42,713 bases of DNA. Source: a virus (Duplodnaviria > Heunggongvirae > Uroviricota > Caudoviricetes). Location: the IMG/VR virus record IMGVR_UViG_2636415959_000003, positions 1 to 42,713 of that record; one strand, written 5' to 3'. Of this stretch, positions 3,440 through 36,052 are shown in pieces; within the stretch, counting starts at the first letter, position 1; each line of letters opens with the position of its first letter. Position numbers and translations under genes: made by a program. The notes beneath the pieces were generated by a model, which made no database searches, was not told where the DNA came from, and worked only from the letters and a program-made list of their open reading frames with translations.

Positions 3440-4635
3440 GAGGTCACCGTGATAGTGACGTGACTCGCAACGCATGACGCAGATTCGTCATAAGCAATAT
3501 CGATATTTCCGCTTGCGACTGAGTCAGAGGATTTGCCGATGAGCAGCTCCTGAATGTCGTAATAGCGAGCACTGCCTCCGCTTACCACGCCAAGGTTTGC
3601 CGGGGAATAAATACGACTCAGCAGAACGTCATCGCCAATTGCCAGGCCATTTATATAATCGGCAACAGCCTGTTTAATCTGCTCGCCGATTTGAGAGGTA
3701 TAGCCGGTAAAAACTTTCAGGGTAATGGCTACGAAAATTGGCACATCGGTAGAGCGCGAAAAACTGATGACGTGTGGATTACCGTAAGTATCCGGCACCG
3801 TGACAGAAGTTTTACCGTAAGTTGCGGTTCCCTGCCCTTTATTCCCCCTGATGGTCTGGGCTATCTCGGTAACATCCCCTCCATCGACGATGGCGGAAAT
3901 AGAGTGTGGCGGCAGCCCGTTGCTGTCGGTTGCCCCAGTGTCGTTCTCATATAGTTTGTGACGTGTCACGCCAGCAACATTAGCGATAGCACCGTCGACA
4001 CCTTCAAACGGTGTGATCGATGGTAGCGCGACGCTTTGCCCCTGCCGAATGCGCAGCTCTGCGTCGGTTTCGGCTGGTGAACCGACAGTAGCCGCAACTG
4101 GATTGGTTACCGACACCCAACCTCGGGTCGGGGTGTTGATAGTGGTAATAGTCCCGGCCAGCGCCGCAACCGAACCGCTATTCGCACATGTGGCCGTCAC
4201 CAGCACAGTACCATCAACGCCGATCGCTACACTTGCGGGAAAATTCCAGATAATGCCGTTTTTATCCCGTGCGGAGCCATTCGTGATAGTCGTGCCTGCC
4301 GTACCGGTTAACAGAAGGTCAGCAGTAGAGTTTGTCGCTACTTTTCGCGTGATCCCGTTAATTTTCACATTGCTGCTAAGCGCTGCGGCCTGCGCTGTCG
4401 TCGGTGAAAAAGAGTTGTAGATCCCGATAGCGGTATTGTTAGCGTCATGCACCGCAAGAGCCACCAGCGCGACCATTTGCCCATCTTTGCTGTCTGGTTC
4501 GAGGTAGGCATCACTACCGTAAATCTGCCTGAAATAGCTGGTCAGTGTATCTAGGATTGTCTGGTAATCAGGCGCACTAATCCCCTGGGCGGTTACCGTT
4601 GCCGATAGCCCCAGCGTGTCGAGGTTCAAAGCCAT
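3436..4635 (-). CDS. Baseplate J-like protein (Mu gp47 / P2 gpJ-like)
   Basis: 399 aa; position and size in a myovirus baseplate cluster. Confidence 0.6.
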   Translation of the reverse strand: MALNLDTLGLSATVTAQGISAPDYQTILDTLTSYFRQIYGSDAYLEPDSKDGQMVALVALAVHDANNTAIGIYNSFSPTTAQAAALSSNVKINGITRKVATNSTADLLLTGTAGTTITNGSARDKNGIIWNFPASVAIGVDGTVLVTATCANSGSVAALAGTITTINTPTRGWVSVTNPVAATVGSPAETDAELRIRQGQSVALPSITPFEGVDGAIANVAGVTRHKLYENDTGATDSNGLPPHSISAIVDGGDVTEIAQTIRGNKGQGTATYGKTSVTVPDTYGNPHVISFSRSTDVPIFVAITLKVFTGYTSQIGEQIKQAVADYINGLAIGDDVLLSRIYSPANLGVVSGGSARYYDIQELLIGKSSDSVASGNIDIAYDESASCVASHVTITVTS

Positions 4636-4989
4636 TTATGCCTCGCTTGTTACAGTCGTCTGGCCGTAGATTGTGTCAATGGAGGAAGTGAAGGTGACGC
4701 GACGGCTGGTGCCGTCATAATTGGTATCAAAGGAAAGAATCGACAGAACGCCCGGTGTGTCCTGTATGCGTTCGCGTATAGCCAGGATGTAGACGTCAGA
4801 ACGCTGCTTACCCAGCACTGACTGGACATACGGCGTGCCTTCTGTCAGGTCGAGAAACCACTGACCTCGCCACAGCTCGAAACGGGTTTTTACGGCCTGG
4901 GCAACGCACTCCGGGCTGTCGATAAGGAAGGTGTTGTCACCCTGCCCGAAAGTGTAATCGCCGTCAGCATCTTCGCGTCGGTATCGCAT
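4636..4989 (-). CDS. Small baseplate protein (gp46 / gpW-like, tentative)
   Basis: 117 aa between spike and J-like genes; coupled stops and starts. Confidence 0.45.
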   Translation of the reverse strand: MRYRREDADGDYTFGQGDNTFLIDSPECVAQAVKTRFELWRGQWFLDLTEGTPYVQSVLGKQRSDVYILAIRERIQDTPGVLSILSFDTNYDGTSRRVTFTSSIDTIYGQTTVTSEA

Positions 4990-5729
4990 TATTGCGGCCC
5001 TCCGGTAGTTCCCCCGCCAGTCTGTACTCCGCCATGTTTATGCGTGGCGACACTGATACCAGAAGCTGTTACGTCATTCGTTACCGTCACCGGCCCAAGC
5101 ATCGTCGCAGTACCGCCGCTTTCTCCCATTCCCTGAGACAGGTTACCGTTAATCGTTACGTTGCCGTTCAGCGTGATAGTCGGGGATGTGATTGTCGTTC
5201 CACCCTCAGCCGTAGCCGTGAGCTGGCCCGGTGTTTGAACGGTGATGTTATGTCCTGCGGCAACCTCTACGAACGCCGCACCATCATCGGTTCGCAGCTG
5301 CGCGGCGCTGGTACTGATACCGCTGATTTTCTGTGCTTGCGACTGCGGGCCAACGATGGCGAACGCATCAGATAAGTCATGCTGGCGCGGGTCGACGGTC
5401 TCCTGAACGCCGCCGCTCTGCCACCAGAAATCGATACAACGGTCGGCAAAGATCAGCAGGCACTCATCGCCTTCTTTTACCGGAAAGGTCAGCGTGCAAC
5501 CACCGCCGCGAGGAAAGATAACCGGCACATCCACCAGCGGTTTTAATTCGGTGGAGCCGTCGCCAACAATACCGCGAAGCGCCACCTCTGCTGTGCAGGT
5601 AACAGTATCAGGATCGAACGACTGAATGATGCCAGGCATCGCTACGCGCATCTGGGTAGACACCGAATCGGCAATGGCCTGCGCGGTCTGCTGCTCTCCG
5701 CCGATCTGTGATTGAGTTGGAATTGGCAT
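4989..5729 (-). CDS. Baseplate spike/hub protein (Mu gp45 / gpV-like)
   Basis: Start MPIPTQ at 5729 with GGAG RBS. Gly/Thr-rich C-terminus (HKHGGVQTGGGTTGG). Confidence 0.5.
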   Translation of the reverse strand: MPIPTQSQIGGEQQTAQAIADSVSTQMRVAMPGIIQSFDPDTVTCTAEVALRGIVGDGSTELKPLVDVPVIFPRGGGCTLTFPVKEGDECLLIFADRCIDFWWQSGGVQETVDPRQHDLSDAFAIVGPQSQAQKISGISTSAAQLRTDDGAAFVEVAAGHNITVQTPGQLTATAEGGTTITSPTITLNGNVTINGNLSQGMGESGGTATMLGPVTVTNDVTASGISVATHKHGGVQTGGGTTGGPQ

Positions 5730-5745
5730 AAAAACTCCATAAAAA

Positions 5746-5765
5746 AACCCGCTCGGCGGCGGGTT
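5746..5765 (-). terminator. Rho-independent terminator (7-bp stem AACCCGC/GCGGGTT followed by U7 on minus strand)
   Basis: Hairpin plus T-run read on the minus strand, immediately upstream of the gp45-like RBS. Confidence 0.55.
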
Positions 5766-5944
5766 ACTGATCAAACGTCAGGGTTTGAAGGCTGATTTGT
5801 CCGTGCTATTTATCTTCTTTGCAGCCCTGAATGTAGGTCTTGCTTAAAACTACGGTAACGTCGTGGTTTGTAGCGAGATACAGGCTGCCAAGGAAAAGCC
5901 GCAAGGCAATTTTTAGCTTCTCACGATAGGGGCCGGATACCTTT

Positions 5945-31191: not shown

Positions 31192-31734
31192 TCATATAAC
31201 CCCCAGCATCGATGTAACCATCGTCATCAGTGGGCCTGCCTGCTCCGGCATGAGGCGGAAGAGCGACGCTATACCCTCGCTTACCTCTTTCAGCTTCTGA
31301 TGCTCTGGAGCGTCCAGCAGCACGGCCTGTTTAGCCTCTGCGAGTTCTTTCTCGGCCTCAGCCAGGCGAGACATTTTGCAATCGGCACCGATCAGGCGAG
31401 TGCGATACTCAACCGGCAGGACCGCCATGATTGCCGGTGTCAGCTGGCGCACGTTCTCGCGGTACTGCTCAGAGTCGAAGCGGTTATCCAGAAAGCGAAA
31501 TAGCTTCTGCCGCGCCCGGCTGATGTCTTCCGGAAAGCTGATGGCGTTCCCGCCCTGCTCCCGGTATTCGTTGATGATCAGCGCCGAAACGACGTCCTGA
31601 TTGTCCAGCGCCGACGACCATGCCCGGACCGCATCGCGGATCTTTTCGTGGTCTGGCGCCGCCTTAGGTTGAGCGCGGTTTATCATCGCTCCCGGGTGTA
31701 TTCCGGTATTGTGTTGATACGCAAGTGAATGCAT
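31192..31734 (-). CDS. YdaT-like protein in the cII position
   Basis: LIINEYREQGG…LTPAIMAVLPVEYRTRL resembles Rac prophage YdaT as recalled. Start at 31734 or 31686. Confidence 0.5.
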   Translation of the reverse strand: MHSLAYQHNTGIHPGAMINRAQPKAAPDHEKIRDAVRAWSSALDNQDVVSALIINEYREQGGNAISFPEDISRARQKLFRFLDNRFDSEQYRENVRQLTPAIMAVLPVEYRTRLIGADCKMSRLAEAEKELAEAKQAVLLDAPEHQKLKEVSEGIASLFRLMPEQAGPLMTMVTSMLGVI

Positions 31735-31763
31735 TGCTTTCCCTTTCGTGGTTAGGGCCGCCG

Positions 31764-31985
31764 TTAGGCGGCAAAGATACTTGGATATAGAACTTCGCGA
31801 GGAAGCCCCGTCACTTCTTCGTACTTACGCATTTTTGTTACTGGAAGGCTGCCACCTCGCTTTTTAAGCATATTGATGGCCTGTGGCGTTACGCCGACCT
31901 TTTCAGCAAGCACCTTTTGAGAGCCGCCCACTGCATTAATGGCTTTCTCAAGCGGGGTGCTTGCGTTGGATTCTTTGTTGATCAT
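31764..31985 (-). CDS. cro: Cro-like HTH regulator (YdaS/Cro type)
   Basis: 73 aa HTH (QKVLAEKVGVTPQAINMLKK); divergent from cI; GGAG RBS. Confidence 0.7.
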   Translation of the reverse strand: MINKESNASTPLEKAINAVGGSQKVLAEKVGVTPQAINMLKKRGGSLPVTKMRKYEEVTGLPREVLYPSIFAA

Positions 31986-32102
31986 GTTTTGCTCCGCTCA
32001 TGTGTAATCAACACCATGTTAATTCATGATGTGGATTAAATCAACATTATGGTGATGGAAAAAATCCACATGTTGTTTACCATGCATGGAGCGGAGGGTT
32101 TT
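31986..32102. promoter_or_regulatory. Right operator/promoter region (OR with PR and PRM)
   Basis: Minus-strand promoter TTGATT-17-TAACAT with the motif ATCCACATCATG between -35 and -10. Further copies of ATCCACATG/AAATCAACA motifs in the cI-cro spacer. Confidence 0.6.
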
Positions 32103-32813
32103 ATGAGTAGCATTTCTGAAAGAATTAAATTTTTACTGGCAAGGGAAGGCTTGAAGCAGCGGGATTTGGCTGAGGCTTTGTCGACTAGCCCACAGACCGT
32201 CAACAACTGGATAAAAAGAGACGCGTTAAGTCGTGAGGCGGCGCAACAAATATCTGAAAAATTCGGTTATTCTCTTGACTGGTTATTAAATGGAGAGGGT
32301 TCTCCAAAGAAGGATCTGGAGAGCAACATCCCGCCAGAGTCTGAGTGGGGAACTGTCGACGCTTGGGACAAAAATACCCCCCTACCTGACGATGAGGTGG
32401 AAGTACCGTTTCTGAAGGATATCGAGTTTGCGTGTGGTGATGGGCGTGTTCATAGCGAAGATCATAACGGCTTTAAACTGAGGTTCTCCAAGGCAACGCT
32501 CAGAAGGGTGGGTGCAAATAGTGATGGTTCTGGAGTGCTTTGCTTTCCCGCTTCTGGTGACAGCATGGAGCCCGTTATTCCTGACGGCGCAACGGTAGCA
32601 GTCGATACAGGCAACAAGCGGATTATTGACGGCGAACTCTATGCTATTAACCAGGGCGATTTAAAGCGCATAAAGCAGCTTTATCGAAAGCCTGGTGGGA
32701 AGCTATTAATACGAAGCATCAATCGCGATTATGACGATGAAGAGGCTGATGAGGCAGATGTCGAGATAATCGGTTTTGTGTTCTGGTACTCGGTATTGCG
32801 ATATCGCCGATAA
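32103..32813 (+). CDS. cI: CI-type repressor (HTH_XRE plus LexA-like S24 autopeptidase domain)
   Basis: N-terminal HTH (KQRDLAEALSTSPQTVNNW), C-terminal GDSMEP…K catalytic Ser/Lys pair; GGAGGG RBS. Confidence 0.9.
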   Translation: MSSISERIKFLLAREGLKQRDLAEALSTSPQTVNNWIKRDALSREAAQQISEKFGYSLDWLLNGEGSPKKDLESNIPPESEWGTVDAWDKNTPLPDDEVEVPFLKDIEFACGDGRVHSEDHNGFKLRFSKATLRRVGANSDGSGVLCFPASGDSMEPVIPDGATVAVDTGNKRIIDGELYAINQGDLKRIKQLYRKPGGKLLIRSINRDYDDEEADEADVEIIGFVFWYSVLRYRR

Positions 32814-32818
32814 TTTTA

Positions 32819-32931
32819 GTGGCCTGAAGAGACGTTTGGGTGATAAGAGAATATCTGATAGTAGGCGTGGTTACTTTGCTCTCGGTTGTTGCGATCGTGC
32901 TTATGGTGGCCTGATGAGACGTTTGGGTGAT
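32819..32931. repeat. Two 26-bp direct repeats GTGGCCTGA(A/T)GAGACGTTTGGGTGAT (25/26 identical), 87 bp apart
   Basis: Copies at 32819-32844 and 32906-32931, starting 6 bp after the cI stop. Confidence 0.6.
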
Positions 32932-33079
32932 GGGCAAGGTGTTCTGGTCGGCGCATAGCTGGTGAAAAAATTATTTAATGCGGTGTATTGGCTGATTGTA
33001 ACCCCATGTAACATCTTGCCGTCACCATTTCGGTGGTTAGATTTTTAATAAAAAAAACAAATGTATAGCAAGGTTTTTT

Positions 33080-33559
33080 ATGGATAAAATTAATTACCCA
33101 CCCCTGTTTGAGCCAGGGCTCCATGACATGGATGAAGCTGGATTAAAATCGTATTGTGTCGATTGCTTTCCTTCATCATCCAGGCGAGGCATGCTATACT
33201 GTAATTTTATACAGCTACTCGAATCTATTCGAGAATTATCTGCTCAATATGGCTGTTTTACAGAAATATGGGTTGATGGTTCATACACCACGTCTAAACC
33301 AGAGCCTGATGATATTGATATTTTGTTGGTATGTGACTATAGCAATATAAACTCAATACCTGTCATGCTTCGGGGCCGCGTCGATAATTTGCTTGACCGA
33401 AACTACATCAAACAAAACTACAAAATTGATGTCCTACTACTCATGAAGAATTTAGATGACCCTAACTATGATTATGAGTACTGGCGTAGCTACTGGCGCG
33501 GTTGGTTTGGTTTTGATCGCAGTGAAAACCCGAAAGGGTTAGTGAGGATTTTTTTATGA
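33080..33559 (+). CDS. Nucleotidyltransferase-fold protein (minimal Pol-beta-like NTase), cargo gene A
   Basis: 159 aa; WVDGSYTTSKPEPDDIDILLV fits the hG[GS]-x9-13-DhDh NTase signature, with a later acidic residue (KIDVLLL). AT-rich; AAGG RBS. Confidence 0.55.
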   Translation: MDKINYPPLFEPGLHDMDEAGLKSYCVDCFPSSSRRGMLYCNFIQLLESIRELSAQYGCFTEIWVDGSYTTSKPEPDDIDILLVCDYSNINSIPVMLRGRVDNLLDRNYIKQNYKIDVLLLMKNLDDPNYDYEYWRSYWRGWFGFDRSENPKGLVRIFL

Positions 33560-34488
33560 ATGATAAATCAATGTTTAAAAATTGCGATAAACGCATTGAT
33601 TTCATTCAAAAAGAAGTCGATGCAATGAAGCAAAACAAAACCAGGTCCTTTGCTGACATGCTTCTTTATCGCTCCATGGATTCTCATCTGAGCGATTTGA
33701 AGGCCGAAAAATTAAAGCAAGATAGTCGGCACCCACTTATCGATTTTTTTGAGCTGCGGCTGAAAGGCTCTGAGGTTGACTTTGGCTCTATTCCTTTAGA
33801 GCTGCTTGGGGCTATTTCAACAAATCTTGCAGCGCTAATACAAAGAGCAACACACAAAATTGCCTCAGGCAAGGACTCAAAAAAAGTTCCCTACGACGTG
33901 AAAAGCTCCTTAAACCTCAGGCTGGCTGATTTATCCCCTGGGTCTACAAAATTGGGCGTCACCTTCTCTACAGGAATAGCAGAATTAGTAGAAACAGTAC
34001 CCAGCAAGGCTGTAAAAGGCATATTCGATTTGTTGTTAAGCGATGACGACAACAACTTCATGAATCACGTCGCTGAAATTGGATACAATTCCACTGTAAG
34101 CCTTAAGAGAATCGTAGAGGAATGCGATAAACACAACTTAACATTTGATGCAAGTTGGACCGGTCCATTTAGTAATGGCACCAAGGTGGCAACTATTGAC
34201 TCCAATAAAATTAAGTACTTGGTGAGTAGACTTACATCAACCATTTCATCCCCTCCCATTACTGAAACGGTTACAGGCGAACTGGTCGTTCTATCCAAAT
34301 ATGGGAAGCTGGAGCTTGATGTTGGTGGTGAACATTTAAAGGCTTCCTATCCGATTGAAATGCTAGATTTAATACAAAAAAAACACAAGGTCGGACAGAT
34401 TGTTTCTCTTTTAGTGGAGACTACTGAGATTCACAATGATCGCATAGGTCTGTACCGTAAAAACCATCTTGTTAAATCGGTTCTTTAA
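33556..34488 (+). CDS. Hypothetical 310-aa protein, cargo gene B (partner of the NTase-fold protein)
   Basis: ATGA overlap with gene A (33556-33559); no TM segments. One Rx4H match (RSMDSH), not diagnostic. Confidence 0.55.
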   Translation: MNDKSMFKNCDKRIDFIQKEVDAMKQNKTRSFADMLLYRSMDSHLSDLKAEKLKQDSRHPLIDFFELRLKGSEVDFGSIPLELLGAISTNLAALIQRATHKIASGKDSKKVPYDVKSSLNLRLADLSPGSTKLGVTFSTGIAELVETVPSKAVKGIFDLLLSDDDNNFMNHVAEIGYNSTVSLKRIVEECDKHNLTFDASWTGPFSNGTKVATIDSNKIKYLVSRLTSTISSPPITETVTGELVVLSKYGKLELDVGGEHLKASYPIEMLDLIQKKHKVGQIVSLLVETTEIHNDRIGLYRKNHLVKSVL

Positions 34489-34495
34489 TATCTCA

Positions 34496-34520
34496 CCCGG
34501 CCACCGCGCCGGGTTTTTTA
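34496..34520 (+). terminator. Rho-independent terminator after cargo operon
   Basis: CCCGG-ccaccgcg-CCGGG followed by TTTTTTA, 8 nt after the gene B stop. Confidence 0.65.
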
Positions 34521-34603
34521 TTGCCCACCCATAAAGCCATCCTCCATTCTGCCGATAACTATCCAGCCTGAAGCTGATAACAATAACTATCGCAACACTA
34601 CCT

Positions 34604-34628
34604 GCCCGCCCGTGCGGGCTTTTTTATT
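34604..34628 (+). terminator. Second tandem rho-independent terminator
   Basis: GCCCGC-ccgt-GCGGGC followed by TTTTTTATT. Confidence 0.65.
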
Positions 34629-34821
34629 GTCCTTTCCGCACTATCTCAGCTGCATCCCTGTTCACACCCTTACCTATCACGTTTCCCGTTTCCTTCCGGT
34701 ACCGTTCCAGCTTGTCGATGATGTTTTGCTGGGTCATAGGTAAATCTGCCAGTGACAACTCCATGACCGCCCGCCCCATGGCGTGAACCATCATGTTCAC
34801 TCTTTCTTCATCCAAGTCCAT
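34624..34821 (-). CDS. Hypothetical small protein (65 aa) divergent from PL
   Basis: ORF ending at the second terminator; no convincing RBS inspected. Confidence 0.35.
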   Translation of the reverse strand: MDLDEERVNMMVHAMGRAVMELSLADLPMTQQNIIDKLERYRKETGNVIGKGVNRDAAEIVRKGQ

Positions 34822-34860
34822 TACCCACTCCTTTTTGATGTTTTTTTCAGCATATCACTT

Positions 34861-34965
34861 ATGCCACCAAAAAATAAATCAACATAAAAATCAACAGTAA
34901 ACGATTAAATCAACAAAATAAATCCACAAGGTGTTGACCTACAAATCCACATGATGTTTAATTAC
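34861..34965 (+). promoter_or_regulatory. Left operator/promoter region (OL/PL)
   Basis: Plus-strand TTGACC-17-TTTAAT with ATCCACATGATG between -35 and -10 (same motif as in OR), plus three AAATCAACA repeats upstream. Confidence 0.55.
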
Positions 34966-35026
34966 TCCATCGAAACGAAACATCGACAGCTGAGCGAAGT
35001 TAGCCAGCGGCGGACAGCAAGTCGCC

Positions 35027-35039
35027 TGCTTTTTAACAA
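35027..35039 (+). promoter_or_regulatory. boxA-like element TGCTTTTTAACAA in PL leader
   Basis: 12 of 13 match to the rrn boxA TGCTCTTTAACAA as recalled; about 70 nt downstream of the PL -10. Confidence 0.35.
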
Positions 35040-35378
35040 CATGCAGATTTACAGCGTCAATGACCTGTTAAGACCCCTACACGTAAACGTGCTGTATCAC
35101 CGGGTGCGATCCGGTCGGTGAGAGAGTATCCCCGCGCGAGAGCGAGAACGGCGTGAGAACGGGCAACACTGGCAGGGAGTTGGCGCTGACCAATACAGGG
35201 AATGTTATGGGATGTGGTGAAGGGTTCATGGACGGGAATATGTCGCACGTAAAGCGGCGAGGCCCGAGGAGCTATTGCCGAAGATAAGTAGGCCGAATCG
35301 GGTCGAAATGGGTCTCCCACCTACCACAGCACCAAAGCATTTCTCCCGCATCAGCGGGTAACTAAGTGGAGAGTAAGT

Positions 35379-35567
35379 ATGCACAAGTGTCAATTCTGTG
35401 GGTACTTTCTGGCATCTGAAGAGATGCAGAGAATATCTGTAAACATGGTTGGCAGGCCTTACAACATCTGCATTCCATGCTCAGAAAAGTACAAAAAGAA
35501 AGGCCTGTGGGATTCGGCAAAAAACGATATCGACTGGAAAGCACTTCCATGCGTCGATGAGACATAA
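35379..35567 (+). CDS. Small zinc-ribbon-like protein (CxxC…CxxC)
   Basis: 62 aa; first ORF of the PL operon; GGAGAG RBS. Confidence 0.5.
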   Translation: MHKCQFCGYFLASEEMQRISVNMVGRPYNICIPCSEKYKKKGLWDSAKNDIDWKALPCVDET

Positions 35568-35600
35568 CCGCATCAGCGGGTAACGACAGAGGGTAAGGGG

Positions 35601-35897
35601 ATGATCGACGACATCAAGCGCATCGACTCAATGATAAATGCGCTTCGCAATATGAAACAGGACATCAAGCGTCAGCAGAAACTAAGTGAAATAAACAGTT
35701 TAGACCTGTCGCCGAAGCAAGCTCAAAAGCGCAATGCCGATGCTGACTGGATTGCGATGGAACAGATTAAGCGTCGGCATGAGCTGCACGCTCTGTCTGT
35801 TGAGCTTGGGTTCGCTGAGCGCCGGGAAAGTTATGCTCCATTTGAATTAACTGACGGGTGGCACCGATTCGACCACAAGCCGCGCGAACCTCAATAG
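35601..35897 (+). CDS. Hypothetical protein (98 aa)
   Basis: AGGGTAAGGGG RBS; followed by a terminator. Confidence 0.5.
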   Translation: MIDDIKRIDSMINALRNMKQDIKRQQKLSEINSLDLSPKQAQKRNADADWIAMEQIKRRHELHALSVELGFAERRESYAPFELTDGWHRFDHKPREPQ

Positions 35898-35918
35898 CCG
35901 CCTAACCAGCGGCTTTTT
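35897..35918 (+). terminator. Intra-operon rho-independent terminator (tL1-like)
   Basis: GCCGC-ctaacca-GCGGC followed by TTTTT directly after the stop at 35897. Confidence 0.55.
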
Positions 35919-36052
35919 CATACCTGGAGTCATTTACGAGTGGCTCAAGTTATGACAACCGGCGGCCATCCACCGCCCATTGAAACACTGAATAAATGCG
36001 TTGAAGTCTTGTATTAACCGTTCCGTTCGCCGCGATAAGGCCAAGAGGATTT

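What the first reader, a model, noticed from the sequence alone, without database searches (positions are those of the whole stretch)
32819..32931. Pair of 26-bp direct repeats immediately after the cI stop, upstream of the cargo cassette
GTGGCCTGA(A/T)GAGACGTTTGGGTGAT occurs twice (32819-32844 and 32906-32931; 25 of 26 identical). Candidates: binding sites for a regulator of the downstream cassette, a duplicated recombination scar marking cargo insertion, or part of a small RNA. An ORF (32776-32958) spans them but overlaps the cI 3' end and looks like a by-product.
Basis: seen in the sequence. Interest (0 to 1): 0.4.

Follow-up and report, generated by a model that had tools for sequence, protein, structure and literature searches.

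The report
Leftover repressor-gene ends marking a recombination joint
The two 26-base repeats are non-coding leftovers of the last seven codons plus stop of lambda-type cI repressor genes, and they sit at the seam where phi80-like prophages swap the defence-gene cassette behind their repressor, which is an ordinary mosaic joint rather than a new regulatory element.

Summary
The repeat is real: 32819-32844 and 32906-32931 match at 25 of 26 bases, with none expected by chance. In the cI frame both copies read W-P-E/D-E-T-F-G-stop, the exact 3' end of lambda-family cI genes. In this window neither copy is coding. They lie behind a phi80-type cI that has its own stop codon.

Phage phi80 carries the same cI, both copies and the same 61-bp spacer, but a different downstream gene. 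Its homology to the window ends inside copy 2. Homology to phage mEpX1, whose cI genuinely ends in this motif, begins there and runs through the cargo, a PDC-M63 candidate defence pair.

Across public phage contigs the motif is an island of identity between about 18 upstream and about 40 downstream sequence classes. The whole 113-bp two-copy unit occurs in at least 8 upstream and 9 downstream contexts.

The copies do not resemble phi80 CI operators. They match no Rfam family, do not fold better than shuffled sequence, and do not flank the cargo.

Best reading: stacked recombination scars that serve as passive homology for cassette exchange.

Unresolved: the spacer holds a 24-codon hydrophobic ORF with codon-like periodicity. 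It is open in every copy found, but there is too little variation to test it.

The parts
32103..32813 (+). cI repressor of phi80 type (236 aa, HTH plus S24 peptidase domains). It ends ...FWYSVLRYRR-TAA.
   Evidence: ORF list. Pfam Peptidase_S24 and Phage_CI_repr. About 93-97% nucleotide identity to phi80 cI. Same 236-aa length as annotated in JX871397 and X13065.
32819..32844 (+). Repeat copy 1, a non-coding relic of a lambda-family cI 3' end. 32820-32843 reads TGG CCT GAA GAG ACG TTT GGG TGA (W P E E T F G stop). It is in frame with the resident cI but separated from it by TAA and TAG.
   Evidence: Sequence. Identical to the real 3' end of lambda and mEpX1 cI apart from the last Gly codon. 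It is the left joint shared with prophages that carry unrelated repressors.
32845..32905 (+). 61-bp spacer of the two-copy unit. It is nearly invariant wherever the unit occurs and has T-rich 3-base periodicity. No homolog was found outside the unit.
   Evidence: 34 units with the same 87-nt period and very few SNPs. T periodicity reached by 17 of 5000 shuffles. Only phi80 matches among 50,697 phage records. Similarity to real cI 3' ends is weak (30 of 300 shuffles reach it).
32840..32914 (+). Hypothetical 24-codon hydrophobic ORF (GTG start; M/V-IREYLIVGVVTLLSVVAIVLMVA). Its start overlaps the relic TGA of copy 1 and its stop lies inside copy 2. Status unproven.
   Evidence: Open in all 34 units. 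Periodicity. No Pfam or NCBIfam family. Not annotated in phi80 or in RefSeq E. coli genomes. Too few substitutions to test for constraint.
32906..32931 (+). Repeat copy 2, a non-coding relic (32907-32930 = W P D E T F G stop). It is the left crossover between phi80-type sequence and the mEpX1-type cargo.
   Evidence: Phi80 homology runs 31900-32930 and mEpX1 homology runs 32906-34532. Alignments. Relic-type decay is seen in other units: stop loss and Gly to Trp or Glu changes.
32933..32965 (+). Third relic. It reads G K V F W S A H S W stop, the 3' end of another S24 repressor family. It is also present in lambda's cI-rexA spacer.
   Evidence: Real genes in L031 and L236 end RIIGRVFWSSHSW-stop with 262 open codons. 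My own count from the sequences printed there is 26 of 33 matching nucleotides. Lambda, 434, SfI, HK544 and VT1-Sakai match window 32906-32961/32963.
33080..34488 (+). Cargo: a two-gene candidate defence system PDC-M63 (A = DUF6932, 33080-33559; B = 33556-34488). It occupies the slot that rexAB occupies in lambda.
   Evidence: PADLOC PDC-M63A E 4e-41 and PDC-M63B E 7.5e-45. Pfam DUF6932. 99.5% identical to phage mEpX1 genes 042/041.
34495..34525 (+). Conserved intrinsic terminator, the probable right-hand boundary of the cargo slot.
   Evidence: Terminator scan. The same 26-mer (3 or fewer mismatches) is found at more than 20 different distances (527-2926 nt) downstream of the cI-end motif in 50 of 149 loci. 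mEpX1 homology ends at 34532 and phi80 homology resumes at 34631.
32006..32081 (.). OR operators (three phi80-type CI sites). Listed to show what real CI sites look like here.
   Evidence: Identical to the operators annotated in phi80. Matrix scores 18.7-21.9.
34921..34962 (.). OL operators (two strong phi80-type CI sites). The cargo slot lies between cI and these.
   Evidence: Matrix scores 18.2 and 21.1. Phi80 annotation of OL and pL.

Best explanation
Each 26-mer is a vestige of the 3' terminus of a lambda-family cI repressor gene: codons W-P-E/D-E-T-F-G plus the TGA stop. These vestiges were left behind when immunity modules and the cargo behind them were exchanged between lambdoid phages.

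The stretch right after the resident phi80-type cI is a stack of such leftovers: WPEETFG-stop, a 61-bp spacer, WPDETFG-stop, then GKVFWSAHSW-stop from a third repressor family. The relics are not translated as part of cI, and no sequence-specific factor needs to be invoked.

Their effect is passive. They are a short patch of near-identity shared with many other lambdoid phages, sitting exactly at the boundary between the repressor gene and the hypervariable cargo slot that lies between cI and OL/pL. Homologous or homeologous recombination (phage Red-type or host RecA) can cross over in this patch on the left. On the right it can cross over in a shared terminator or OL-side sequence. The result is replacement of the cargo.

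What is shown: the identity of the repeats, their non-coding state here, and the position of the phi80/mEpX1 breakpoint inside copy 2. What is inferred: that recombination used the patch as homology, rather than the patch being a hitch-hiking remnant of illegitimate events, and which enzymes were involved.
For: 1. Identity. The only similarity between this region and lambda, 434, SfI, HK544 or VT1-Sakai is 56-58 nt at about 94-95% identity, covering the last 25 nt of their cI genes plus about 31 nt downstream. In frame, both copies read WPE/DETFG-stop.

2. Non-coding here. Copy 1 is preceded by TAA and TAG. Copy 2 has only 14 open codons upstream.

3. Breakpoint. Phi80 has the same cI, both copies and the spacer, then diverges immediately after the TGA of copy 2. 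Phi80 homology covers 31900-32930, mEpX1 homology covers 32906-34532, and phi80 homology resumes at 34631. In mEpX1 the motif is the true end of cI.

4. Generality. In the pooled occurrences of the motif (which include loci fetched by the two-copy scans), it ends a long cI ORF in 88 cases and is a relic behind unrelated repressors in 89. There are about 18 upstream and about 40 downstream classes. In 80 loci chosen by protein identity to lambda cI (98% or more), 17 different sequences follow, diverging from the third base of the last Gly codon.

5. Portability. The two-copy unit, always with an 87-nt period, has at least 8 upstream and 9 downstream contexts, plus one more of each in L268. In L104 and L268 copy 1 is the real end of an open cI frame. 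The cargos include phi80 gene 40A, PDC-M63, bstA with its aba element, and a bare terminator.

6. Decay. Copy 2 shows stop loss and Gly to Trp or Glu changes in some units, as expected of a non-coding relic.

7. Stacking. A third repressor-end relic sits at 32933-32965.

8. Literature. The cI-N interval is a described hotspot of mosaic diversity (Degnan 2007, as cited in PMC8585504). Module exchange through short conserved flanking sequences, and a minimal homology of about 30 bp for Red and RecA, are stated in PMC2327257.
Against: About 25 bp of imperfect identity is at or below the roughly 30-bp minimal efficient homology quoted in PMC2327257. Crossovers in the patch would therefore be rare, and some joints may stem from illegitimate recombination filtered by selection for an intact cI.

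The motif scans were exact-match scans, so the 100% conservation of the core is partly ascertainment. A synonymous-tolerant scan shows that about 35 of 120 sampled sites carry synonymous variants.

The scar model does not explain why the 61-bp spacer is nearly invariant, why it has codon-like T periodicity, or where it came from.

No experiment or transcript data were available.
Confidence: 0.8

Rival explanations
1. The unit is a tiny gene. The spacer encodes a 24-aa single-helix membrane peptide (M/V-IREYLIVGVVTLLSVVAIVLMVA, 32840-32914). Its GTG start overlaps the TGA of the cI-end motif (GTGA), so translation would be coupled to cI where copy 1 is the real cI end. The two 26-mers are then just the linker sequences on either side, which let this mini-cargo move between phages.
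For: The ORF is open in all 34 units, including the most diverged one, which loses the GTG but keeps an ATG one codon later. The spacer has strong T periodicity at codon position 2 (13 of 20; reached by 17 of 5000 shuffles) and an 18-residue window with 15 hydrophobic residues (121 of 5000 shuffles). The two SNPs in the hydrophobic core that are not L to M are synonymous. In L104 the unit is the only thing between a real cI end and its terminator. The unit keeps its integrity across at least 8 by 9 contexts.
Against: A 25-codon open frame is unremarkable; by my own estimate roughly 30% arise by chance. There are too few substitutions for any test of constraint. There is no convincing Shine-Dalgarno sequence (from reading the sequence). 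In the window and in phi80, the cI stop lies 27 nt upstream of the GTG, so coupling would be weak. No family match. No homolog outside the unit. Never annotated. The periodicity could be a fossil of former coding sequence.
Confidence: 0.12
2. The repeats are binding sites for a regulator (phi80 CI or another protein), or a DNA-based self-immunity element like aba of the BstA system, controlling or protecting against the downstream cargo.
For: There are two direct copies 87 bp apart, between the repressor gene and a candidate defence cassette. A DNA element with terminal direct repeats at this position (aba) is known for bstA (PMC8585504).
Against: The best phi80 CI operator-matrix score in 32790-32945 is 1.7, against 18-22 for the five strong OR and OL sites. 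In most phages the motif is single-copy and is coding sequence. The unit occurs with at least 9 unrelated downstream cargos and with no cargo at all, so it is not cognate to any one system. In L050 the unit lies upstream of bstA's own, different aba sequence. The copies accumulate changes, including in the stop codon.
Confidence: 0.03
3. The region encodes a small RNA or a structured 3'-UTR element of the cI transcript. Prophage NC-SV, for example, has been proposed to encode the sRNA svsR at the 3' end of its cI.
For: The region is probably transcribed from pRM as part of the cI-cargo message. No terminator or promoter was predicted between cI and the cargo apart from a weak hairpin at 33018-33037. 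A published claim places an sRNA at the 3' end of a lambdoid cI (PMC12803456).
Against: No Rfam match above noise. The minimum free energy of 32805-32965 is no better than shuffles (z = 0.10). The NC-SV cI ends ...MPQTYRKHG, and the NC-SV region contains nothing closer than 10 mismatches to the 26-mer, so svsR is unrelated. No compensatory variation is available.
Confidence: 0.03
4. The repeats are a target-site duplication, or att-like scars, made when the cargo cassette was inserted by a transposase or integrase.
For: They are direct repeats next to a cargo cassette.
Against: Both copies lie on the same (left) side of the cargo. The identical pair exists in phi80 with another gene downstream. 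26 bp with a fixed 61-bp spacer does not resemble a target-site duplication. No transposase or integrase lies in the cassette.
Confidence: 0.02

Closest known systems
Short conserved boundary or linker sequences at module joints of lambdoid phages (Clark et al. 2001, as cited in PMC2327257), within the cI-N mosaic hotspot (Degnan et al. 2007, as cited in PMC8585504)
   Same: A short island of near-identity shared by phages whose flanks are unrelated. It sits exactly at a module boundary, and actual exchange breakpoints map to it.
   Different: Here the linker can be identified as the last 7 codons plus stop of lambda-type cI, surviving as a non-coding relic behind unrelated repressors. It is present twice in tandem and stacked with a relic of a third repressor family. 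I could not read Degnan 2007 or the 1988 phi80 sequence papers, so I do not know whether this was already noted.
3' end of the lambda cI gene and the start of the lambda cI-rexA intergenic region (J02459 37196-37251)
   Same: 94.6% identical over 56 nt to window 32906-32961. Same reading W-P-E-E-T-F-G-stop followed by the GKVFWSAHS relic.
   Different: In lambda the motif is translated as the C-terminus of CI. In the window it is downstream of another repressor's stop codon and is not translated as part of cI.
Phage phi80 cI-40A intergenic region (JX871397 about 34474-34590; X13065)
   Same: Same cI, both copies and the same spacer, with two substitutions within the 113-bp unit.
   Different: Phi80 continues into gene 40A, while the window continues into the mEpX1-type PDC-M63 cassette. 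The region carries no annotation in phi80.
The aba (anti-BstA) DNA element downstream of cI in prophage BTP1 (PMC8585504)
   Same: A short element with direct repeats, located between cI and a defence gene.
   Different: aba is cognate to one BstA variant, overlaps the bstA start codon, and has 6-bp terminal repeats. The unit here is found with many cargos and sits upstream of the real aba in L050.
svsR, a proposed sRNA at the 3' end of cI of prophage NC-SV (PMC12803456)
   Same: Position at the 3' end of a lambdoid repressor gene. NC-SV carries a diverged DUF6932-type cassette behind its cI.
   Different: The NC-SV cI has a different 3' end, and nothing in that region resembles the 26-mer.

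Membership tests
Lambdoid mosaic joint / conserved linker sequence | Short stretch of high identity shared by phages whose sequence on one or both sides is unrelated | tested here: met
   About 18 upstream and about 40 downstream classes around the motif. 17 downstream classes behind 98%-or-more identical lambda cI. The only similarity to lambda, 434 and SfI is 56-58 nt.
Lambdoid mosaic joint / conserved linker sequence | Lies at a boundary between functional modules | tested here: met
   It lies between the repressor gene and the cargo slot that ends at OL/pL.
Lambdoid mosaic joint / conserved linker sequence | Observed exchange breakpoints coincide with it | tested here: met
   The phi80/mEpX1 switch lies inside copy 2. 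The switch between repressor types lies at the left edge of copy 1.
Lambdoid mosaic joint / conserved linker sequence | Recombination actually uses it as homology (dependent on Red or RecA) | not testable with these tools
   This needs marked phage crosses. Only the roughly 30-bp minimal-homology figure from PMC2327257 is available.
Functional 3' end of a lambda-family cI gene | The motif terminates a long S24-repressor reading frame | tested here: not met
   Copy 1 has 0 open codons upstream and copy 2 has 14. The resident cI stops at 32813.
phi80 CI operator | Match to the 19-bp operator consensus (AATCaACAnnnTGTTgAtt-like, partly palindromic) | tested here: not met
   Best matrix score 1.7, against 18.2-21.9 for the OR and OL sites.
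Known RNA family or structured RNA | Covariance-model match, or folding energy better than shuffled sequence | tested here: not met
   There are no Rfam matches inside 32819-32931. All matches in the 4-kb scan have E of 0.8 or higher and lie far below their gathering scores. Folding z-score 0.10.
Target-site duplication of an inserted element | The repeats flank the inserted DNA and are absent from the empty site | tested here: not met
   Both copies are on one side of the cargo, and the pair is present in phi80 with different cargo.
aba-like cognate self-immunity DNA element | Co-varies with, and is specific to, one defence gene | tested here: not met
   The same unit occurs with at least 9 downstream contexts, including a bare terminator.
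Small membrane protein or type I toxin-like peptide | Conserved ORF with evidence of coding constraint and translation signals | tested here: inconclusive
   The ORF is open in 34 of 34 units and has codon-like periodicity. There are only about 7 variable sites, no clear RBS, no family match and no homolog elsewhere.

The most novel reading that the evidence does not exclude
The 113-bp unit is a miniature mobile gene rather than a scar. It would encode a 24-residue membrane peptide, translated by coupling to the cI stop codon (GTGA overlap) and expressed in lysogens from pRM. It is bracketed by two copies of the cI-end linker, which let it hop between immunity regions by homologous recombination. 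That would make it the smallest cargo yet seen in the rexAB/bstA defence slot.
Probability: 0.12. Interest if true: 0.55.

Novelty: new member of a known kind. Interest (0 to 1): 0.25.

Why it matters
The result explains a conspicuous repeat in a widely used phage. The same unit sits in phi80 and therefore in DH5alpha-type laboratory strains. No new regulator or RNA needs to be invoked.

It also gives a concrete, sequence-level picture of how the defence-gene slot behind lambdoid repressors is reshuffled. On the left there is a portable patch made of the last codons of cI. On the right there is a shared terminator. Fossil repressor-gene ends accumulate in layers at the joint.

That is useful for annotating prophages, since relics of this kind should not be called as genes or sRNAs. 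It is also useful for predicting where defence cassettes can be exchanged, and for designing cassette swaps by recombineering. It does not change any concept in the field.

Tried and rejected
1. Rfam scan of 31500-35500 at a permissive E-value gave only noise.

2. An RNA fold of 32805-32965 was no better than shuffled sequence.

3. The hammerhead idea, prompted by CTGATGAG in copy 2, was dropped. There is no GAAA or stem arrangement, no Rfam hit, and copy 1 has CTGAAGAG.

4. A phi80 CI operator matrix built from the annotated operators does not match the repeats.

5. svsR (PMC12803456) was a promising lead because it lies at the 3' end of cI. I located prophage NC-SV in E. coli NC101. Its cI ends differently and the 26-mer is absent, so the lead was rejected. 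The exact svsR sequence is not in the held text or supplements.

6. I tested whether the spacer derives from a cI 3' end. The best local match is a 10-mer (GGTTGTTGCG) shared with L104-type cI, and a 13-of-16 match to an IVGKVI-coding stretch. 30 of 300 shuffles score as well, so this is suggestive only.

7. I searched for diverged two-copy units to test coding constraint. Exact and synonymous-tolerant double-motif scans of viral contigs, metagenome contigs and species-representative genomes returned only near-identical units, and none in the representative genomes.

Pfam and NCBIfam gave nothing. tblastn and blastn of the spacer against 50,697 phage records found only phi80.

9. Degnan et al. 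2007 could not be read because it is not held. A full-text search for WPEETFG found no paper.

Full report
OBSERVATION. GTGGCCTGAAGAGACGTTTGGGTGAT lies at 32819-32844 and GTGGCCTGATGAGACGTTTGGGTGAT at 32906-32931, matching at 25 of 26 bases. The match extends to 31 nt at 90% identity, and the start-to-start spacing is 87 nt. Even with 3 mismatches allowed these are the only two sites in the window, and no shuffled window gave any. Copy 1 begins 5 nt after the TAA (32811-32813) of a 236-aa HTH plus S24 repressor at 32103-32813.

WHAT THE REPEAT IS. A megablast of 32700-33100 against 50,697 phage records split into three groups. Phi80 matches 32713-32930, covering the cI 3' part, copy 1, the spacer and copy 2. 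Phage mEpX1 matches 32906-33100, from copy 2 onward. Lambda, 434, SfI, HK544, VT1-Sakai and others match only 32906-32961/32963.

In lambda that short match covers the last 25 nt of cI plus about 31 nt of the cI-rexA spacer. Read in that frame, copy 1 is TGG CCT GAA GAG ACG TTT GGG TGA (W P E E T F G stop). Copy 2 is the same with GAT (D) in place of GAA. Lambda and mEpX1 CI really end ...QWPEETFG-stop.

In the window neither copy can be part of cI. Copy 1 is in frame with cI but separated from it by TAA and TAG, and copy 2 has 14 open codons upstream. The repeats are therefore two non-coding vestiges of the 3' terminus of lambda-family cI genes, sitting behind a repressor of a different C-terminal type (...FWYSVLRYRR-stop).

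THE JOINT IN THIS WINDOW. Aligned with phi80, the window is collinear through cI, copy 1, the 61-bp spacer and copy 2. It loses all similarity immediately after the relic TGA of copy 2. BLAST of 31900-36000 gives the following:
- phi80 homology at 31900-32930, resuming at 34631-35362 and 35568-36000;
- mEpX1 homology at 32906-34532, at 99.5% identity.

Relative to phi80, gene 40A has thus been replaced by the mEpX1-type two-gene cassette at 33080-34488. The left crossover falls within the 25 bp shared at copy 2.

The cassette is DUF6932 plus a 310-aa partner. This pair is the PADLOC candidate defence system PDC-M63 A/B. It occupies the position of rexAB, between cI and OL/pL. The phi80-type operators are at 32006-32081 (OR) and 34921-34962 (OL).

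HOW GENERAL THIS IS. Pooled with the other loci, the motif ends a long cI frame in 88 occurrences and is a relic with fewer than 40 open codons in 89. The second figure is inflated by the scans that targeted two-copy units. There are about 18 upstream and about 40 downstream sequence classes. Identity collapses 3 nt upstream of the core and right after the stop codon.

The core itself was fixed by the scan pattern, so I ran two controls. First, 80 loci were chosen by protein similarity to lambda CI (98% or more identical). These have 17 different downstream sequences, diverging from the third base of the last Gly codon. Second, a scan tolerant of synonymous changes shows that about 35 of 120 sampled sites carry synonymous variants. 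The core is therefore not invariant.

Cargos seen directly after the motif include rexAB (lambda), phi80 40A, PDC-M63, bstA preceded by the published 63-bp aba sequence, and simply an intrinsic terminator. A conserved terminator identical to window 34495-34525 lies at more than 20 different distances (527-2926 nt) downstream of the motif in 50 of 149 loci. It is the likely right-hand boundary of the slot.

Published work agrees with this picture. [quoted passage not shown] Module exchange via short conserved flanking sequences is also described (Clark 2001, cited in PMC2327257).

THE TWO-COPY UNIT. Scans for two motifs 54-84 nt apart found 18 viral and 11 metagenomic contigs. None were found in one-genome-per-species representatives. 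A degenerate version of the scan added one more contig. With phi80, CB7286, KL53 and the window, that makes 34 units.

All 34 have the 87-nt period and an almost invariant spacer. They fall into at least 8 upstream and 9 downstream contexts. Upstream contexts include phi80-type cI, two other unrelated repressor types (the CB7286 type, and the NC-SV type ending ...MPQTYRKHG), and lambda-family cI genes for which copy 1 is the genuine gene end (L104, at least 144 open codons; L268, at least 105).

The same [copy 1 - spacer - copy 2 - PDC-M63] block follows three different repressor types, so for those comparisons the joint is at the left edge of copy 1. Phi80-type cI plus the unit is followed by three different cargos, so for those the joint is at the right edge of copy 2. 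Copy 2 carries changes that a coding copy would not tolerate: TGA to CGA, and GGG to TGG or GAG.

63 of 5,426 complete E. coli genomes carry the unit. Most are laboratory strains with phi80 material, such as DH5alpha, TOP10 and NEB 5-alpha.

A THIRD RELIC. Directly after copy 2, 32933-32965 reads G K V F W S A H S W stop. Real S24 repressor genes in L031 and L236 end ...RIIGRVFWSSHSW-stop with 262 open codons, and are themselves followed by a WPEETFG relic. By my count from the sequences printed, 26 of 33 nucleotides match. The same fossil is the conserved start of lambda's cI-rexA spacer. The region behind the repressor gene is therefore a stack of repressor-gene ends left by successive exchanges. 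That accounts for direct repeats in one orientation on one side of the cargo.

ALTERNATIVES TESTED.
- CI binding: a matrix built from the annotated phi80 operators scores the five strong OR and OL sites at 18-22, and nothing above 1.7 in 32790-32945.
- RNA: there is no Rfam match above noise and no excess folding stability (z = 0.10).
- svsR: this published sRNA claim at the 3' end of a lambdoid cI (PMC12803456) was followed to prophage NC-SV in E. coli NC101. That cI ends differently, and the region has nothing within 10 mismatches of the 26-mer.
- Target-site duplication: excluded, because both copies lie left of the cargo and phi80 has them with another cargo.
- aba-like cognate element: excluded by the many cargos the unit accompanies.

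WHAT REMAINS OPEN. The 61-bp spacer is not explained by the scar model. It has no homolog outside the unit. It resembles real cI ends only weakly, with 30 of 300 shuffles scoring as well. It shows a marked three-base periodicity of T: 13 of 20 in one phase, reached by 17 of 5000 shuffles.

That phase is codon position 2 of a 24-codon ORF at 32840-32914 encoding M/V-IREYLIVGVVTLLSVVAIVLMVA. Its GTG overlaps the relic TGA of copy 1 (GTGA) and its stop lies in copy 2. The ORF is open in all 34 units, including the most diverged one. There are only about seven variable sites, there is no clear ribosome-binding site, no family matches, and the ORF has never been annotated. The periodicity could equally be a fossil of older coding sequence. 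I put this reading at about 0.12.

VERDICT. They are vestigial lambda-type cI 3' ends that act, at most, as passive homology at a known mosaic hotspot. This is a new, nicely resolved example of a known kind of feature. Interest is low to moderate.

Noticed in passing
window 32933-32965: A third fossil directly after copy 2. GGCAAGGTGTTCTGGTCGGCGCATAGCTGGTGA reads GKVFWSAHSW-stop, the 3' end of another S24 repressor family. Real genes in L031 and L236 end RIIGRVFWSSHSW-stop. The same fossil is the conserved start of lambda's cI-rexA intergenic region.
   Followed up: partly
window 33080-34488: The cargo behind cI is a two-gene candidate anti-phage system, PADLOC PDC-M63 A (DUF6932) plus B, 99.5% identical to phage mEpX1 genes 042/041. 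Prophage NC-SV of E. coli NC101 carries a DNA-diverged version of the same pair behind its own repressor (L141 7371-8773).
   Followed up: partly
window 34495-34525 (and 34604-34619): An intrinsic terminator right after the cargo is conserved in 50 of 149 motif-bearing loci, at more than 20 different distances from the cI end. It looks like the right-hand boundary of the cargo slot. A second strong terminator follows at 34604-34619, in the 34533-34630 stretch that matches neither phi80 nor mEpX1.
   Followed up: partly
window 35363-35567: An insertion of about 205 bp relative to phi80, just upstream of the N gene. It holds a Cys-rich 62-aa ORF at 35379-35567 (MHKCQFCGYF...CIPC, zinc-ribbon-like).
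   Followed up: no
L005 (E. coli KL53, NZ_CP030919) 4618-5826: The genome whose sequence is 100% identical to the window across the repeat region has an IS4-like ISVsa5 transposase inserted in the DUF6932 gene. The window has the gene intact, so it comes from a different but very close prophage.
   Followed up: no
L050 7546-7720 (also L138, L147): In these contigs the two-copy unit is followed by the published 63-bp aba element and bstA (Owen et al. 2021). A characterised abortive-infection system therefore uses the same docking point.
   Followed up: partly
L004 (E. coli CB7286) 3470-3530; many viral contigs: Behind the CB7286-type repressor, the TGA stop is followed in frame by 16 sense codons ending ...IADSQWPEETFG-stop. 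The relic here extends further into the former cI, and it also contains a piece resembling the ...HSW-stop repressor end, so relics are nested.
   Followed up: no
window 32845-32905: The spacer shows T at every third base in 13 of 20 positions (p about 0.003 by shuffling). This is a codon-like signal in a stretch annotated as intergenic in phi80 and in all RefSeq genomes.
   Followed up: partly
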